DNA of 64,000 nt, taken from the NCBI RefSeq assembly GCF_002160755.1, contig NZ_NFLE01000013.1, positions 11,906-75,905 on the forward strand. The letters run 5' to 3'. The position numbers were made by a program, and so were the translations under genes. Below the pieces are notes generated by a model. It did no database searches. It worked only from the letters and a program-made list of their open reading frames with translations, and was not told the DNA's origin. The stretch is from Lachnoclostridium sp. An14. GTDB lineage: Bacteria; Bacillota; Clostridia; Lachnospirales; Lachnospiraceae. This document shows, one piece after another, positions 3,250 to 55,314 of the stretch (positions are counted from its first letter, which is position 1; each line of letters starts with the position of its first letter).

Positions 3250-3533
3250 GCAGCGGGACGAGGGCTGGTAAGGTTGGGAAGTTCCGGAGCAATTTCGGAC
3301 ATAGGGGCGTTTCGCGGGACTCCCGTGAAAGCGCCTGTCCCGAAACCTGGTGTGATAAAGGAAAAAGGCACAAAACGTCAAACCGAAAAATCCGGTTCCC
3401 GTAAAAGGTTTCGTAAAAATTGCCGCTGTAAAAAGCTAAGGTAAAAAGCTAAAGCTAAAAAAATCCGGCTCCCGTAAAATTCTGCTTGCCAAATCCGGAT
3501 TTTATGGTATAATAAAAACTGTTCTTGAAACAG

Positions 3534-3604
3534 GCAGATGTAGTTCATCGGTAGAATATCAGCTTCCCAAGCTGAGGAGGCGGGTTCGATTCCCGTCATC
3601 TGCT
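3534..3604 (+). tRNA. tRNA-Gly (anticodon CCC)
   Basis: Cloverleaf by eye: acceptor GCAGATG/CATCTGC, D-arm GTTC…GAAT, anticodon stem TCAGC/GCTGA with loop TTCCCAA, T-arm GCGGG-TTCGATT-CCCGT, discriminator T, no encoded CCA. Promoter TTGCCA-17-TATAAT about 40 bp upstream. An antisense ORF with MTGIEPASS is the typical tRNA artefact. Confidence 0.85.
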
Positions 3605-3689
3605 TTCGAAATTATGAGAGGAACCCTTGAGCTATCAAGGGTTTTTTCTTCGTTTTACAGGAAGTTTTTGCCTTTTCCGGGTCTGTGGG

Positions 3690-4095
3690 AATGTCCGCAA
3701 GTCAGAGGGAATAGAGGAGATGTCTGCGAGCCAGAGGGAATCTTTGCAGACAAGAGGAAATCTCCGCAAGCCAGAGGGAATGCCGGCAAGTTAGAAGGGA
3801 CCTTCGCAAACCAGAGAGAATCTCCGTCAACCGGAGAAAGCCTCTGTAAATTAGTAGAAGGAGCCTCCGCAAGCCAGAGGGAACCTTCGCCAACCAGAGG
3901 AAACCTCCGCAAGCGAGAAGGAATCCCGCAAGCTGGAGTGAACCTCCGCAAATAAGAAGAAGACTCCGCCAGCCAGTGGGAATGCCAGCCAGCCAGAGGG
4001 AACCTTCGCCAGCCAGAAGGAATCCCGCAAGCTAGAGGGAACCTTCGCCAGCCAGAAGGAATGCCCGCAAGCCAGAGGGAACCTTCGCCAGCCCA
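3690..4095. repeat. Tandem array of ~19 degenerate 19-22 bp units (consensus ~CAAGCCAGAGGGAACCTTCGC) immediately downstream of tRNA-Gly
   Basis: Head-to-tail units with no spacers, more diverged near the tRNA and near-perfect towards 4095. All six frames give low-complexity translations. Confidence 0.8.
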
Positions 4096-4253
4096 TGCCC
4101 TCCCCCTTCGCCCCCTTCGCAGAAAAGCAGGAAAGAAAAGGCATCCTCCCTCCGCCCCCTCATCATCCCTACAAATTTCGCAGTACCCATTTGCTCTGCG
4201 GCATCCGTCGCAGCGTCAACCTCATACCTCAACCAAAGAAAGGAGGACAGCTC

Positions 4254-5945
4254 TTGCTGGCAGAAAATCGAAAGAAATGGAAAGAACGGTGGGATTCCTT
4301 CACCGCGGAATGTGGCCGCGGCCTCTGGCTGACGGTGTTTGCGGCAGTGTTTGTATACGGGATCCGGCTGGTGGAGGAAGACCTTTCCATCGACACGGAA
4401 ATTATGCTCAATAACCAGCAGGAGATGCTGGACTCCTGGATCGGAATCGGGCGTTTTGGACTGGTATTTACGAAAAAACTGTTTGGTTTTCAGCGTCTGG
4501 TGCCCTTTACGGAAAATCTGATGATGTTGCTGGCGCTGATCGCCGCGGGAGTGGTGCTGTCCTTCGCCCTTTGGACCTGGTGCGGGGAAGACCGGCGTTA
4601 CCGGACGTTTTGCGGGATTCTTCCCGCCCTTTTCCTCACTGGCCCCTGTTTTGCGGAGCAGTTTCACTTTACGCTGCAGGCGTTTCCAGTGGCCTTTGCC
4701 ATGGGATTGGCGGCTGCGGCGGTATTCTCCATGGAACAGTGGGCCTGGGAGAGAAGGAAGGTCTGGTGGCTGGCGACAGGCGTTCTTTTAGGGGCGTGGG
4801 CGGCAGGCACGTATCAGGTGCTGGCCGCCATGGAGGTGGCCCTGTTTGCCATGGCGTATTTCCTGCGGGTGACAGAGGCGAAGGGAGAGAAAACATGGCT
4901 TGTTTCCGGGATTCGCTCGGCGGCGGCCTTCGGGCTCACCATGGCCCTCTATGCCGGTCTTTCCGCGGCGGTAAAGGCGGTGACCGGCTCCTACTCCGCC
5001 TATGTGGAGGGACAGATGCACTGGGGCGAGGGGATCCGGGTCTGCCTGCACTACATTTTAAATGACGTGACCAGGATCTTAAAGAGTACGGAGATTTTTT
5101 ACCACCCGTGGACCGCGCCAGTGCTGGCGGTGTTTGCCCTGGCGGCGGGCTGGCGGATTGTCCGGCTGCCCGGATCCCTGGAGCGAAAGCTGTGCGCCTG
5201 GTTCAGCCTGGCGATGGTGGCGGCATCCCCCTTTTACCTGACAGTGGCCACCGGCTACTACCAGCCGGCCAGAGCGCAGCTGGTTTATCCCCTGGCCCTG
5301 GCCTTCTGGTGCAGCTACCTGACGGCCCCGTGGCCGGAACTTCGCGAAAAGGAATCCTGCGAAAAGGAGCCTTGTGAAAAGAGGGGAACGGAGGCAGAAC
5401 CTGGGGATTCCGTGCCCAGATCAGCTGCAGCCGTTCCATCTTGCAAAGCCGGAACTGGGAAACGTCCTCCGGCCCTTCCCTGGCTGAAATGGGCAGCCTG
5501 CCTTCTCTGCGCGGTGATCGCCGTGGATCAGGCCCAGGTGACCACGGGATTGTTCCGCACGGCGGCGGAGGTGAGCCGAAACGATCAGCAGCTGCTGAAC
5601 CGGATCTACAGCCGGGCGGAGGAAGTGGCGGACACGGAGGATATGTCCCAGGTGATGATCCTTCTGGTGGGCAAACGGGATCCCGTCCTGTCTCCGGACA
5701 GCCTCACAGGGGATACCATTGGCTATTCCTACTTTAACTGGGAGGACGACATCCTGGGAGTGACCGGCCGGATCTTTACGGAAAATGGCCTTGGCCGGGC
5801 CATGGGCCTAGAATACGGCCCGGTGAATACCCAGTCCTATGAAAACGCCGTGGCACAGGCAAAGGGCCGTCCCATCTGGCCGGCAAAGGACAGCGTCTGG
5901 GAAGTGAGCGAAGGCGTGGTGGCGGTAAAATTGGGGGAGGAATAG
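4254..5945 (+). CDS. Hypothetical polytopic membrane protein (N-terminal ~8-10 TM helices, Pro/Cys/Glu-rich linker, C-terminal ~200 aa extracytoplasmic domain)
   Basis: The ORF is open from 4095 inside the repeat array. The likely start is TTG 4254 (RBS AAAGGAGGA 7 nt upstream), giving an N-terminus LLAENRKKWKERW followed by the first TM helix. An alternative start is ATG 4404. No recognisable family by eye. Confidence 0.55.
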   Translation: MLAENRKKWKERWDSFTAECGRGLWLTVFAAVFVYGIRLVEEDLSIDTEIMLNNQQEMLDSWIGIGRFGLVFTKKLFGFQRLVPFTENLMMLLALIAAGVVLSFALWTWCGEDRRYRTFCGILPALFLTGPCFAEQFHFTLQAFPVAFAMGLAAAAVFSMEQWAWERRKVWWLATGVLLGAWAAGTYQVLAAMEVALFAMAYFLRVTEAKGEKTWLVSGIRSAAAFGLTMALYAGLSAAVKAVTGSYSAYVEGQMHWGEGIRVCLHYILNDVTRILKSTEIFYHPWTAPVLAVFALAAGWRIVRLPGSLERKLCAWFSLAMVAASPFYLTVATGYYQPARAQLVYPLALAFWCSYLTAPWPELREKESCEKEPCEKRGTEAEPGDSVPRSAAAVPSCKAGTGKRPPALPWLKWAACLLCAVIAVDQAQVTTGLFRTAAEVSRNDQQLLNRIYSRAEEVADTEDMSQVMILLVGKRDPVLSPDSLTGDTIGYSYFNWEDDILGVTGRIFTENGLGRAMGLEYGPVNTQSYENAVAQAKGRPIWPAKDSVWEVSEGVVAVKLGEE

Positions 5946-25636: not shown

Positions 25637-26140
25637 TTATCCGGTTTGGCCGGGGGCATCCGGGATTTGCGGTTCCGGCTCCTCCGTCTGTTTCGTTTTG
25701 CTCAGCACAAGTTCCTCAAACCCGGCGTTTAAGCGCTGGCTAAAATATTCCAACGCCTCCACAAACTCCGGGGAAAAGTTTTGCAGGGTGTCCAGGATGG
25801 CCTGTTCCTCCGCCTGGTAGACGTCGTTTAACAAGCGGCGGGCGAGCTGGCGGCCCTGGTCCGTGAGCACCATGGCCTTTTCTTTGGTGTGCTGTCCGCC
25901 GTCAAAGACCAGGTTGCCGTCGGCTATCATGTGTTTGACGATGGAGTTTACGGTGGTGCGGGGGATCAGCCACTGGTCGCTGATTTCCTTCTGGGAGTGG
26001 GGCCTTTCGTCGTCCAGGGCATAGAGGAAGGCCAGGGTGTTTTCATTGACCCCGTAGTGTCTGCCCAAAAGGTAGTACAGGCCGTCGATCTGGTTGATGG
26101 CAAGCATGATGCGCCGGATGGTTTCATAGGGATGGTCCAA
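25637..26140 (-). CDS. MarR-family transcriptional regulator
   Basis: wHTH …RPHSQKEISDQWLIPRTTVNSIVKHMIADGNLVF… Probable TTG start at 26140 (RBS AGGAGG 7 nt upstream); an alternative ATG is at 26107. The annotated ORF extends to 26245 with an implausible N-terminus. Confidence 0.75.
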   Translation of the reverse strand: MDHPYETIRRIMLAINQIDGLYYLLGRHYGVNENTLAFLYALDDERPHSQKEISDQWLIPRTTVNSIVKHMIADGNLVFDGGQHTKEKAMVLTDQGRQLARRLLNDVYQAEEQAILDTLQNFSPEFVEALEYFSQRLNAGFEELVLSKTKQTEEPEPQIPDAPGQTG

Positions 26141-26255
26141 AAGAAAGCCTCCTTTTTTGTTTTTATAAGGTGAAAATGGTTCTGTTCTGATATTATAATA
26201 CGAAATCGTACTGATGATTATAATACGAAATGGGATTAAAGTCAACAGGGGAAAT

Positions 26256-26350
26256 AGGCGGATGAAGGCTGGAAGATAGACGGATGGAGGCGGAAAATGG
26301 GCGGACGGAGGCAGAAGATGGGCGAGCGGAGGCGGAAAATGGGCGGACGG
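26256..26350. repeat. 4-5 tandem copies of a 21-bp unit (GGCGGACGGAGGCGGAAAATG) in the marR / carD-like divergent intergenic region
   Basis: Direct head-to-tail repeats seen by eye; flanked by a short CTCC/GGAG-rich run. Confidence 0.7.
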
Positions 26351-26540
26351 AGACGGGAAATGCGCCGCGGTTTGGGATTGGAGAGGGGAAAAACCGGGGA
26401 AAGCACGAAAATTTTCACAAAAACTTCCCCGCCCTGTATGGGCAAACTTTCACAAATCGGGAAAAAACAGGAGATGGGGCCTTACACGGGGATCGGTTTT
26501 TGTATTAAAATAGAAGGAACAGGATAATCGTGTTTTAGAA

Positions 26541-27077
26541 TTGGAGATGAGAGGAATGTTTCAGGCTGGAGATGTGATCGTTTGCGGAACCCATGGCGTG
26601 TGCCGGGTGGAATGTGTGGGCCCCCTGGATGGGGGCGGGATTTCCAGGAGCGGAGTGGAGAAAGGCCGGATTTACTACACCCTGGTGCCGGTCTATGAGA
26701 AGGAGAGCGTGGTGTTTACCCCGGTGGACAATCAGAAAATAGTGATCCGTCCAGTGCTCTCCAGGGAGAAGGCCCTGGATCTGATCGACGGGATGCCCAC
26801 GGCGGAAATGCTGACGATCACCGACGAGAAACGGCGAGAGACGGAGTACCGGGAGGCCCTTTACGCCTGCCAGGCGGAGGCGCTGGTGAAGGTGTTAAAG
26901 ACCATTTACGCCAGGCGGCGCACCCGGCTGGCCAGAGGGAAGAAAGCCACGGACGCGGACAGCCGGTACATGAAACTGGCGGAGGACTGCCTCTACGGGG
27001 AGCTGGCCGTTTCCCTGGGGCTGGAGCGGGATCAGGTGCGGGGATTTATCCGGGACCGGATTGGGACGGCGGAGTAG
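26541..27077 (+). CDS. CarD/CdnL-family (CarD_CdnL_TRCF N-domain) RNA-polymerase-binding transcription factor
   Basis: MFQAGDVIVCGTHGVCRVECV… N-terminal RNAP-interacting Tudor-like domain and a helical C-terminal domain. ~175 aa; the start could be 26541 or 26556. Confidence 0.8.
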   Translation: MEMRGMFQAGDVIVCGTHGVCRVECVGPLDGGGISRSGVEKGRIYYTLVPVYEKESVVFTPVDNQKIVIRPVLSREKALDLIDGMPTAEMLTITDEKRRETEYREALYACQAEALVKVLKTIYARRRTRLARGKKATDADSRYMKLAEDCLYGELAVSLGLERDQVRGFIRDRIGTAE

Positions 27078-47552: not shown

Positions 47553-47784
47553 AAGGGATACAAAATGGACATGACCGCTAACGCGGTCATCACAAATCAT
47601 GAAAGCCAGATGGCTCCACGCCTACGGCGTTCCCGCCATCTGCCGACGGTATTCGAAATCCGGGCTGCCGCCCTACTTTCTCATACCGTCTTGCCCGTCT
47701 GATGCCGATATATCTATGCGCGAGGGCGCGCCCATCTATATCGTCGCCATCCGGGGCTTTCATAGTAAATAGGAGGAAAAGTGT

Positions 47785-50886: not shown

Positions 50887-51050
50887 GAGCCGCCGTTTCT
50901 CTGCGGAAGGCAGAGGCGGAAAAACGGCGCGGAACAGGGGAGTTTTCCCGTGATTTTCCAGAAGTTTTTCAGGGATTTCACAGAGGGTTTTCCGGAAAAG
51001 ACTGAAAGAAGGTCTTGAAAAATACCTGGAAAAAATTTTTTCACAGGGGA

Positions 51051-51085: not shown

Positions 51086-51351
51086 AAATTCATAGTTCGC
51101 GATGACGAGGAGGAGTAGTCGGACGGGAATCTACAGAGAGCTGCCGGTTGGTGCAAGGCAGTGAGGAAGGTCCGGTGAATATCACCTCAGAGCTTTCGGG
51201 CTGAAACGGTTTGCAGTAAGCCTGGACGGAGAACAGCCGTTATCCTGTTGCCCATTGTCAGATGGGAGCGAGTGGCCGTGCAAGCGGCAAAAAGAGTGGT
51301 ACCGCAGAGGTTTGAGCCTTTGTCTCTTGGAGTAGAGACAAGGGCTTTTTT
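51086..51351 (+). promoter_or_regulatory. T-box-like riboswitch leader (stem I with GA/K-turn motif and AGAGAG box; T-box-like AGAGUGGUACCGCAG; intrinsic terminator)
   Basis: …GCGATGACGAGGAGGAGTAG… (GA motif) and …CAGAGAGC… (AG box). AAAAAGAGTGGTACCGCAGAGG (51291-51310) matches the T-box consensus AGGGUGGNACCGCG at 11 of 14 positions. Terminator GCCTTTGTCTC…GAGACAAGGGC + TTTTTTG (51315-51351). The next gene (BASS transporter) starts ~260 nt downstream, which is unusually far. Confidence 0.5.
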
Positions 51352-55059: not shown

Positions 55060-55314
55060 TGAACAGAAAACCCAGAAAAGCGAAGATGGGGACAGTACAG
55101 AGCAGGCAGCCATGCAGAGAGAGGCGCGTTTGGTGCGAGCGCCTTATGGAGGCAGTTTTTGGAAAACCACCCCGGAGCGTCCCTTAATCGGGAACGGTGA
55201 TTCCGTTATCATCAGAAATGAAGTGGTCCGGCGCGCGGCGCGCGGCGGGCAAGCAGGGTGGAACCGCGATGAAAGATCGTCCCTTGCCGTAGGCGCTACG
55301 GCAGGGGACTTTTT
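55060..55314 (+). promoter_or_regulatory. T-box riboswitch leader of thrS (probable Thr/ACC specifier)
   Basis: AGAGAG box; candidate specifier region …GAAAACCACC…; T-box AGGGTGGAACCGCG (55254-55268); terminator GTCCCTTGCCGTAG…CTACGGCAGGGGAC + TTTTT (55279-55314). thrS is T-box-regulated in Firmicutes generally. Confidence 0.75.

What the first reader, a model, noticed from the sequence alone, without database searches (positions are those of the whole stretch)
3690..4095. About 400 bp array of degenerate 21-bp tandem repeats between tRNA-Gly and a membrane-protein gene
About 19 head-to-tail units (consensus ~CAAGCCAGAGGGAACCTTCGC) begin ~85 bp after tRNA-Gly and run up to the likely RBS of the downstream membrane-protein gene. 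There are no spacers, so this is not CRISPR. The units degenerate progressively towards the tRNA-proximal side. The 21-bp period is two helical turns, so every unit presents the same face. This is typical of iterated transcription-factor or nucleoid-protein binding sites, and of slipped-strand (phase-variable) promoter arrays. tRNA 3' flanks are also classic integration and rearrangement hotspots. A second, different 21-bp array lies at 26256-26350.
Basis: seen in the sequence. Interest (0 to 1): 0.6.

Follow-up and report, generated by a model that had tools for sequence, protein, structure and literature searches.

The report
Species-specific 20-bp minisatellite upstream of gtrII
The repeat array is real, but it looks like an ordinary, slowly changing non-coding minisatellite confined to one gut Lachnospiraceae species, with no sign that it is a regulatory device.

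Summary
The array exists at window 3677-4093. It has 20 head-to-tail units plus a 7-bp stub, and the period is 20 bp, not 21. Identity at lag 20 is 0.56, against at most 0.36 in 1000 shuffles.

It lies between the terminator of tRNA-Gly(CCC) and a 146-bp C-rich leader. That leader precedes the true RBS and TTG start (4254) of a GtrII-family membrane glucosyltransferase. The organism is Lachnoclostridium sp. An14.

- **Variation within the species:** Thirteen contigs carry six alleles of about 18, 20 or 25 units. All differences are whole-unit indels, and each allele is tied to one flanking haplotype. The same allele recurs in up to four independent samples.
- **Absence elsewhere:** Three sister species share the synteny (GyrB 94-95% identical) but have no array.
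- **No other copies found:** Pattern scans of representative genomes, metagenomes and viral contigs, BLAST against phage and plasmid records, and a protein search over 5.8 billion clusters all found none.
- **No sign of constraint or function:** The array diverges between strains at about the synonymous rate. I found no promoter, terminator, RNA family, significant fold, terminal inverted repeats or conserved reading frame. Affinity for the anti-Shine-Dalgarno sequence is at background level.

Two more copy-number-variable repeats (VNTRs) lie nearby.

Verdict: a lineage-specific VNTR made by block duplication and probably neutral. Low interest.

The parts
3486..3513 (+). Sigma-70-like promoter of tRNA-Gly (TTGCCA-16-TATAAT with an extended TG). 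It is the only such promoter between the ABC transporter and gtrII.
   Evidence: The same promoter is conserved in three sister species.
3533..3605 (+). tRNA-Gly, anticodon CCC
   Evidence: ARAGORN. Rfam tRNA, 65 bits.
3618..3647 (+). Intrinsic terminator after the tRNA (13-bp stem followed by a T-run)
   Evidence: It is homologous to the terminator in sister species L115.
3677..3868 (.). Older, more degenerate half of the 20-bp array: 9 units, including irregular units of 29 and 23 bp. This half matches unit for unit in all strains.
3869..4093 (.). Younger half of the array: two 99-bp (5-unit) blocks at 3869-3967 and 3968-4066, then one unit and a 7-bp stub. All copy-number differences between strains lie in or at the edge of this half.
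   Evidence: TRF period 99, 77% matches. Lag-99 identity 0.75. Allele alignment.
4047..4086 (.). Two units (40 bp; the register is ambiguous within the repeat) that are present in the window haplotype and absent from the 535-, 544- and 545-bp alleles
   Evidence: Alignment of the six alleles.
4094..4239 (+). C-rich, non-repeat leader between the array and the RBS. It carries small indels between strains and, like the array, has no counterpart in the sister species.
4240..4256 (+). RBS AAGGAGGA (4240-4247) and TTG start codon (4254-4256) of gtrII
   Evidence: Duplex with the anti-SD sequence is -16.3 kcal/mol. The start agrees with RefSeq WP_162612834.1 and with gene calls in other strains.
4254..5945 (+). 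GtrII-family polytopic glucosyltransferase gene (563 aa)
   Evidence: Pfam PF14264, E = 4e-35.
3851..4144 (-). Spurious 97-aa ORF over the array. The equivalent ORF is called as 97, 167 or 189 aa in other strains.
   Evidence: Frame and length change between alleles. The minus strand is A-poor, so stop codons are rare. Homologues exist only at this locus.

Best explanation
The array is a lineage-specific, non-coding minisatellite (a VNTR) in Lachnoclostridium sp. An14.

**Origin.** It arose after this species split from its sister species, inside the spacer between the tRNA-Gly terminator and gtrII. It grew by duplication of whole units and multi-unit blocks of 40 and 99 bp. The likely mechanism is replication slippage or unequal exchange between units. 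Older units sit on the tRNA side. The younger, more uniform and still polymorphic units sit on the gene side.

**Evolution.** It changes length rarely and drifts in sequence at about the neutral rate.

**Likely role.** It most likely has no dedicated function. Any effect would be indirect, by lengthening the untranslated stretch that a read-through transcript from the tRNA-Gly promoter must cross to reach gtrII.

**Shown:** the array's existence, period, block structure, polymorphism, species restriction and lack of detectable constraint or signals.
**Inferred:** the duplication mechanism, neutrality, and co-transcription with the tRNA.
For: - **Period and significance:**
- **Block structure:** TRF period 99 at 77% matches, and lag-99 identity of 0.75 in the 3' half.
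- **Polymorphism:** six alleles in 13 same-species contigs, with spacer lengths of 535, 544, 545, 573, 573 and 666 bp. The array length differences are whole-unit indels of 40 bp, or of 79 bp and more.
- **Slow change:** alleles co-segregate with flanking SNP haplotypes. The 573-bp allele is identical in four samples and the 545-bp allele in four samples.
- **Species restriction:** three sister species with the same order (ABC transporter, tRNA-Gly(CCC), gtrII, gyrB, gyrA) have only about 84-200 bp between tRNA and gtrII and no repeats. Their GyrB is 94-95% identical at the amino-acid level.
- **No constraint:** divergence between strains is 3.4-3.5% in the array. It is 3.5-5.4% at fourfold sites of gtrII, 1.8-2.5% at fourfold sites of gyrB, and 2.8% in the upstream intergenic region.
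- **No signals:**
  - no Rfam match;
  - fold z-scores of -1.2 and -0.1;
  - no promoter or terminator in or after the array;
  - no terminal inverted repeats;
  - anti-SD affinity of units -7.05 kcal/mol against a background of -5.9 +/- 3.4.
- **No other copies found:**
- **General tendency to form repeats:** two further VNTRs lie in the same window. One is a 21-bp intergenic array with 4, 5 or 6 units. The other is an in-frame 15-bp repeat inside gtrII that gives products of 563, 568 or 573 aa.
Against: - Neutrality rests on few substitutions (6-8 per about 200 bp) and cannot exclude weak selection.
- Conservation across units is uneven by position (G1, C2, A4, A8, G9, A10, A14 in 17-20 of 20 units; positions 3 and 16 in 10-12). 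This could reflect a constrained motif, though the A/B unit subfamilies also explain it.
- The array sits upstream of a fast-evolving surface-glycan-modifying gene, a class that is often under variable expression.
- The contigs are short-read consensus assemblies. They hide within-population length heterogeneity and can mis-assemble repeats.
- The species' own representative genome was not recovered in the genome scan, so the absence of other copies in this genome is only weakly tested.
Confidence: 0.66

Rival explanations
1. A copy-number 'rheostat' or phase-variable repeat. Expansion and contraction of the array would tune gtrII expression, as reported for promoter tandem repeats in M. tuberculosis, and so generate surface-glycan diversity.
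For: - Copy number differs between strains, and the changes are concentrated at the gene-proximal end.
- The downstream gene is a GtrII glucosyltransferase that evolves fast (65-68% aa identity against 94-95% for GyrB in sister species). It also carries an in-frame VNTR of its own.
- A precedent exists: promoter tandem-repeat copy-number variation in M. tuberculosis (PMC12817950).
Against: - The units are only about 64% alike, which is poor substrate for frequent slippage.
- No promoter is detectable in or next to the array.
- Each flanking haplotype has one allele, and identical alleles recur in up to four samples.
- The array ends 146 bp before the RBS.
Confidence: 0.1
2. An array of iterated DNA binding sites for a transcription factor or nucleoid protein that controls gtrII or the tRNA terminator region.
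For: - There are twenty same-orientation sites at a regular 20-bp spacing.
- A core (GC.A...AGA.G.AA) is more conserved than the tail of the unit.
Against: - The array is absent from sister species that keep the same genes.
- It diverges at about the neutral rate.
- The period is 20 rather than 21 bp, so the sites do not stay on one helix face.
- The unit occurs nowhere else in the 64-kb window.
- No regulator gene lies next to it.
Confidence: 0.08
3. An RNA-level element. The array would be transcribed in the gtrII leader, and its roughly 20 purine-rich AGAGGGAA/AGAAGGAA motifs would bind ribosomes (like a STAB-SD stabiliser) or a GGA-binding protein such as CsrA (like a CsrB sponge).
For: - The array is in the same orientation as gtrII, with no terminator between them.
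- The + strand is strongly A-rich and T-poor (AT skew +0.4 to +0.5).
- Most units contain GGA.
Against: - Unit affinity for the anti-SD sequence equals the genome background (-7.05 against -5.9 +/- 3.4 kcal/mol; true RBSs are -9 to -17).
- There are no significant hairpins (z = -1.2).
- There is no Rfam match, even at E = 10.
- The array has no promoter or terminator of its own.
- There is no csrA in the window, which is not decisive.
- It is absent from sister species.
Confidence: 0.07
4. A remnant or single copy of a minisatellite-bearing mobile element (a MITE like BrickBuilt of Porphyromonas gingivalis) inserted next to the tRNA.
For: - The anatomy resembles BrickBuilt: about 20-23-nt spacer-less tandem units, always intergenic, with non-repeat 'leader' and 'tail' flanks (PMC4596501).
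- The array and its C-rich flank are a species-specific insertion of about 560 bp.
Against: - No terminal inverted repeats.
- No second copy in the window, in the pattern scans of genomes, metagenomes or viral contigs, or among the called ORFs of 5.8 billion protein clusters.
- No phage or plasmid similarity.
Confidence: 0.05
5. The array is translated, either as the minus-strand ORF that gene callers predict or as an N-terminal extension of GtrII.
For: - Gene callers predict 97-189-aa minus-strand ORFs with a GGAGG just before the ATG.
- The frame upstream of TTG 4254 is open for 75-104 codons in all alleles. The ATG at 4095 stays in frame through compensating indels.
Against: - A 20-bp unit is not a multiple of three.
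- The 40-bp indel changes the frame and length of the minus-strand ORF between alleles.
- No Pfam family and no homologue outside this locus.
- The openness is explained by composition (12% T on the + strand).
- The first start codon in the gtrII frame is 4095, after the array.
- The segment from 4095 to 4253 is frameshifted between haplotypes and is missing in sister species.
Confidence: 0.02

Closest known systems
Bacterial intergenic minisatellites / VNTR loci (for example the MIRU-VNTR loci of Mycobacterium tuberculosis)
   Same: - Head-to-tail units of tens of bp in an intergenic spacer between co-oriented genes.
- Whole-unit copy-number differences between strains, stable enough to mark lineages.
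- No spacers.
   Different: - The units are shorter (20 bp against 40-100 bp) and much more degenerate.
- It is a single locus as far as tested, not a dispersed family.
- It is not known to carry small ORFs that couple translation.
BrickBuilt minisatellite-MITE of Porphyromonas gingivalis (PMC4596501)
   Same: - A spacer-less tandem array of about 20-23-nt units.
- Strictly intergenic and species-restricted.
- Flanked by non-repeat segments.
   Different: - BrickBuilt has inverted-repeat ends, occurs 19 times per genome and contains promoter elements.
- Here I found no terminal inverted repeats, no other copy and no promoter.
Promoter tandem repeats with phase-variable copy number in M. tuberculosis (PMC12817950), and classical simple-sequence contingency loci
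   Same: A repeat array upstream of a gene, with copy number differing between strains.
   Different: - Those repeats include promoter elements or lie between -35 and -10 or inside a coding sequence. They are near-perfect and vary within clonal populations.
- This array is degenerate, contains no detectable promoter, and is fixed per haplotype.
CsrB/RsmZ-type protein-sponge RNAs
   Same: About 400 nt with roughly 20 regularly spaced GGA-containing purine motifs.
   Different: - The motifs are not presented in hairpin loops.
- There is no promoter or terminator of its own.
- There is no Rfam hit.
- It is not conserved beyond one species.

Membership tests
Bacterial VNTR / minisatellite | Head-to-tail tandem units of about 10-100 bp, beyond chance | tested here: met
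   TRF: period 20, 18.2 copies, score 204. Lag-20 identity is 0.559 against at most 0.362 in 1000 shuffles.
Bacterial VNTR / minisatellite | Copy number differs between strains by whole units | tested here: met
   Six alleles in 13 contigs, with about 18, 20 or 25 units. The array length differences are indels of 40 bp, or of 79 bp and more, in register with the units.
Bacterial VNTR / minisatellite | Non-coding, or coding in frame | tested here: met
   The unit is not a multiple of three. The ORFs over the array are not conserved between alleles.
Phase-variable contingency locus (slipped-strand) | Near-perfect repeats that allow frequent slippage | tested here: not met
   64% matches between units. 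Only 2 of the 20 units equal the consensus.
Phase-variable contingency locus (slipped-strand) | The repeat lies within a promoter spacer or a coding sequence, so that unit number switches expression | tested here: not met
   No sigma-70-like promoter in 3650-4254. The array ends 146 bp before the RBS and lies outside the coding sequence.
Phase-variable contingency locus (slipped-strand) | High-frequency, reversible variation within clonal populations | not testable with these tools
   Only consensus assemblies are available. At the population level, one allele per flanking haplotype, shared by up to four samples, argues for a low rate.
CRISPR array | Conserved repeats separated by unique spacers | tested here: not met
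   The units abut one another without spacers.
MITE with internal minisatellite (BrickBuilt-like) | Terminal inverted repeats and multiple dispersed copies | tested here: not met
   No terminal inverted repeats. No other copy in the window, the pattern scans or the ORF-level search. The complete genome of the species was not available.
CsrB/RsmZ-type sponge RNA | GGA motifs exposed in hairpin loops, with own promoter and terminator | tested here: not met
   Fold z = -1.2. No promoter or terminator. No Rfam match at E <= 10.
STAB-SD-type 5' mRNA stabiliser | Strong complementarity to the 3' end of 16S rRNA | tested here: not met
   Mean for the units is -7.05 kcal/mol, against a background of -5.9 +/- 3.4 and -16.3 for the true RBS.
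Iterons / iterated transcription-factor sites | Specific protein binding, and conservation where the regulated gene is conserved | tested here: inconclusive
   Binding cannot be tested here. The array is absent from three sister species that keep the gene and evolves at about the neutral rate.

The most novel reading that the evidence does not exclude
The array is transcribed as part of a read-through transcript from tRNA-Gly to gtrII. Its unit number would set how much transcription or translation reaches gtrII. It would then be a slowly switching copy-number rheostat for modification of a surface glycan in a gut commensal, perhaps through a protein that recognises the AGARGGAA core.
Probability: 0.08. 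Interest if true: 0.5.

Novelty: new member of a known kind. Interest (0 to 1): 0.15.

Why it matters
- **Practical value.** It gives a strain-typing marker for Lachnoclostridium sp. An14 in gut metagenomes, together with two neighbouring VNTRs.
- **Annotation warning.** The array and its T-poor composition make gene callers emit spurious 97-189-aa ORFs. They also led to a 53-aa false N-terminal extension of GtrII in the original GenBank record.
- **If the array did modulate gtrII.** It would be an example of repeat-number control of surface glycosylation in a Firmicute commensal. Nothing found here points that way.

Tried and rejected
- **RNA family or structure.** Rfam at E <= 10 found only the tRNA. 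Folding of both strands over 3660-4260 was not better than shuffles. The leader's apparent sequestration of the SD sequence has z = -1.1.
- **Pairing between adjacent units.** The tail of one unit against the core of the next fits only in the four youngest units, which are recent copies of each other (inspection of the units).
- **SD-like array.** Rejected on duplex energies.
- **Antisense match of B-type units to gtrII codons 13-16 (GAAGGAATCCC at 4291).** Matches of 10-11 nt to array k-mers occur at about 1.3 per kb across the window, so this is chance.
- **Search for the same array elsewhere.**
  - The three-core pattern in 185,579 representative genomes gave 105 hits, none related.
  - A 25-nt junction pattern in JGI metagenomes gave the same locus once and one chance hit inside a coding sequence.
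  - Viral contigs, phage records and plasmid records gave nothing.
  - The spurious minus-strand ORF, used as a protein query, hit only its own cluster.
- **Seed for the array in sister-species spacers.** No convincing homologue was found.
- **csrA in the window.** None.
- **More alleles through the permease gene.** This returned the same five contigs.

Full report
**What is in the sequence.**
- The window carries a strong sigma-70-like promoter at 3486-3513.
- It is followed by tRNA-Gly(CCC) at 3533-3605 and an intrinsic terminator at 3618-3647.
- From 3677 to 4093 there is a spacer-less tandem array.
- TRF reports 3729-4093 with period 20, 18.2 copies, 64% matches and score 204. It also reports higher-order periods of 59, 79 and 99 bp that match better, at 72-77%.
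- Segmentation gives 20 units plus a 7-bp stub, with consensus GCAAGCCAGAGGGAACCTTC.
- Thirteen units are 20 bp and three are 19 bp. One is 21 bp, and two irregular units are 29 and 23 bp.

**Period and significance.**
- Identity at lag 20 is 0.56, against 0.33-0.34 at lags 19 and 21.
- The best lag between 10 and 40 in 1000 dinucleotide shuffles reaches at most 0.36.
- The 20-mer matches five times with up to 3 mismatches, against 0.01 expected, and only inside the array.

**Structure of the array.**
- The 3' half consists of two 99-bp five-unit blocks that are 75% identical.
- Its last units alternate between an A type (GCAAGCYAGAGGGAACCTTC) and a B type (GCCAGCCAGAAGGAATSCC).
- The decay of unit quality towards the tRNA is weak, at 15.0/20 against 16.8/20.
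- The + strand is 12% T, with an AT skew of +0.4 to +0.5.

**What flanks it.**
- The downstream gene is a GtrII-family polytopic glucosyltransferase (PF14264, E = 4e-35).
- Its start is TTG 4254, preceded by AAGGAGGA at 4240-4247. That RBS pairs with the anti-SD sequence at -16.3 kcal/mol.
- This start is the one used by RefSeq (563 aa) and by the gene calls in all other strains.
- The array therefore ends 146 bp before the RBS, with a C-rich non-repeat leader (4094-4239) in between.
- Upstream lies an amino-acid ABC transporter. Downstream lie gyrB/parE-like and gyrA/parC-like genes.
- The proteins are identical to those of Lachnoclostridium sp. An14, a member of the Lachnospiraceae.

**Comparison within the species.**
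- I looked up exact copies of the ABC ATPase and GyrB proteins in public assemblies and added one pattern hit in the JGI metagenome contigs. With the window, this gave 13 contigs of the same species.
- The stretch between the terminator and the RBS is 535, 544, 545, 573, 573 or 666 bp long, which makes six distinct alleles.
- The first nine or so units match unit for unit in all strains.
- The array length differences are whole-unit indels. One is a 40-bp two-unit indel near the gene-proximal end. The 666-bp allele has insertions of 79 bp and more, giving roughly 18, 20 and 25 units. The smaller length steps come from short indels in the C-rich leader.
- Each allele goes with one flanking SNP haplotype.
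- The 573-bp allele is identical in four independent samples, the 545-bp allele in four, and the 535-bp allele in two. One contig (L123) looks recombinant.
- So the locus is a VNTR, but a slow one. I saw no variation within a haplotype.
- Consensus short-read assemblies cannot show heterogeneity within a sample.

**Comparison between species.**
- GtrII homologues at 65-68% identity led to three sister species (L111, L114, L115).
- They have the same gene order: ABC transporter, tRNA-Gly(CCC), gtrII, gyrB, gyrA.
- Their GyrB is 94-95% identical at the amino-acid level and gyrB is 84-85% identical at the nucleotide level.
- In them the tRNA-to-gtrII distance is only about 84-200 bp, with no repeats.
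- The array and its C-rich leader are therefore an addition of about 560 bp in one lineage.
- In all four species the only sigma-70-like promoter between the ABC transporter and gtrII is the conserved tRNA-Gly promoter.
- I infer from this that gtrII is reached by read-through from that promoter. This inference is untested.

**Is it constrained or functional?**
- Divergence between haplotypes is 3.4-3.5% in both halves of the array.
- It is 3.5-5.4% at fourfold sites of gtrII, 1.8-2.5% at fourfold sites of gyrB, 2.8% in the intergenic region upstream of the tRNA, and 2.5-6.3% in the leader.
- This gives no sign of purifying selection, although the counts are small.
- There is no Rfam match at E <= 10 and no fold better than shuffles on either strand.
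- There is no promoter or terminator within or after the array and no terminal inverted repeats.
- Unit affinity for the anti-SD sequence is at background: -7.05 against -5.9 +/- 3.4 kcal/mol.
- Conservation differs by position within the unit. This follows the A/B subfamily structure and is not independent evidence of a motif.

**Is it translated?**
- Gene callers place a minus-strand ORF over the array, of 97 aa in the window haplotype and 167 or 189 aa in others.
- The 40-bp indel changes its frame and length.
- It has no Pfam family, and its only homologues among 5.8 billion protein clusters are at this same locus.
- The long ORFs follow from the A-poor minus strand.
- In the gtrII frame, the first start codon is 4095, after the array.
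- The 4095-4253 segment stays open and in frame in all four haplotypes through compensating indels (+2/+1 and +2/-2).
- However, its amino-acid sequence is frameshifted over 8-32 residues between haplotypes, and the segment is missing in sister species.
- My rough estimate of the chance of such agreement in frame is about 0.1.

**Is it found elsewhere?**
- A three-core pattern scan of representative genomes of 185,579 species returned 105 stretches, none related to this array or locus.
- The species' own representative genome was not recovered, so this test is weak for the An14 genome itself.
- A 25-nt junction pattern in JGI metagenomes found only the same locus once, plus one chance hit inside a coding sequence.
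- Viral contigs, phage records and plasmid records gave nothing.

**Interpretation.**
- The best-supported reading is an ordinary lineage-specific minisatellite.
- It would have been built by unit and block duplication through slippage or unequal exchange, growing at the gene-proximal end and drifting neutrally.
- It sits in a spacer that is evolutionarily labile in this genus.
- Two further VNTRs in the same window support a general tendency of this genome to form such repeats.
  - The 21-bp array at 26252-26362 lies between a MarR-like gene and a CarD-like gene and has 4, 5 or 6 units among strains.
  - An in-frame 15-bp repeat inside gtrII (5344-5381) gives products of 563, 568 or 573 aa.
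- Regulatory readings (copy-number rheostat, protein-binding array, RNA sponge or stabiliser) are not excluded. None of their testable defining features was met.
- The closest described objects are the MIRU-type VNTRs and the BrickBuilt minisatellite-MITE of P. gingivalis.
- The array differs from MIRU-type loci in being single-locus and more degenerate.
- It differs from BrickBuilt in lacking inverted-repeat ends, dispersed copies and promoter elements.

**Verdict.** The regulatory interpretation is not supported. Novelty is that of a new member of a known kind, and interest is low.

Noticed in passing
window 26252-26362: The second array (21 bp, 5.2 copies) lies between a divergent MarR-like gene (25637-26245, minus strand) and a CarD-like gene (26556-27077, plus strand). 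It is also a VNTR, with 4, 5 or 6 units among five other strains. Most units carry GGAGG-N7-ATG in frame, so gene callers emit ORFs of 69, 76 or 83 aa whose length follows the unit number.
   Followed up: partly
window 5344-5381: An in-frame 15-bp tandem repeat (EKEPC-like pentapeptide) inside gtrII varies between strains and gives products of 563, 568 and 573 aa.
   Followed up: partly
window 4254-5945: GtrII evolves much faster than its neighbours. It is 65-68% identical at the amino-acid level in sister species, where GyrB is 94-95% and the ABC ATPase 92-95%. It is 96% identical within the species, where the neighbours are 100%.
   Followed up: partly
window 4095-4253: The reading frame upstream of the TTG start stays open, and the ATG at 4095 stays in frame with gtrII, in all four haplotypes. 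This happens through compensating indels (+2/+1 and +2/-2), although the encoded residues between the indels are frameshifted. The original GenBank record (OUQ17821.1, 616 aa) starts at 4095 and RefSeq (WP_162612834.1, 563 aa) at 4254.
   Followed up: partly
window 4092-4170: C-rich tracts follow the array directly (CCCTCCCCCTTCGCCCCCTTCG, CCTCCCTCCGCCCCCTC). On the minus strand, 4092-4115 reads GGGGGCGAAGGGGGAGGGCATGGG, a canonical G-quadruplex motif.
   Followed up: no
window 3486-3513 and 4254; L111, L114, L115: In four related species, the only recognisable sigma-70-like promoter upstream of gtrII is the conserved tRNA-Gly promoter. This suggests that a protein-coding gene is expressed by read-through from a tRNA gene.
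   Followed up: partly
window 3387-3405, 3461-3479, 3490-3503; 3428-3461: Three copies of AAATCCGG(Y)TCCCGTAAAA-like sequence lie upstream of and within the tRNA-Gly promoter region. One overlaps the promoter spacer. There is also a 13-bp repeat with 2.5 copies at 3428-3461.
   Followed up: no
window 47600-47762 (-), 51093-51330 (+), 55074-55287 (+): Rfam matches above the gathering score: Clostridiales-1 RNA (107.6 bits) and two T-box leaders (126.9 and 99.5 bits). A 22-bp repeat with 2.4 copies lies at 50941-50992, just upstream of the first T-box.
   Followed up: no
L123 1475-2047: One contig combines the 5' SNPs of the 545-bp haplotype with the 3' array and leader of the 573-bp haplotype. 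This suggests recombination within or next to the array.
   Followed up: no
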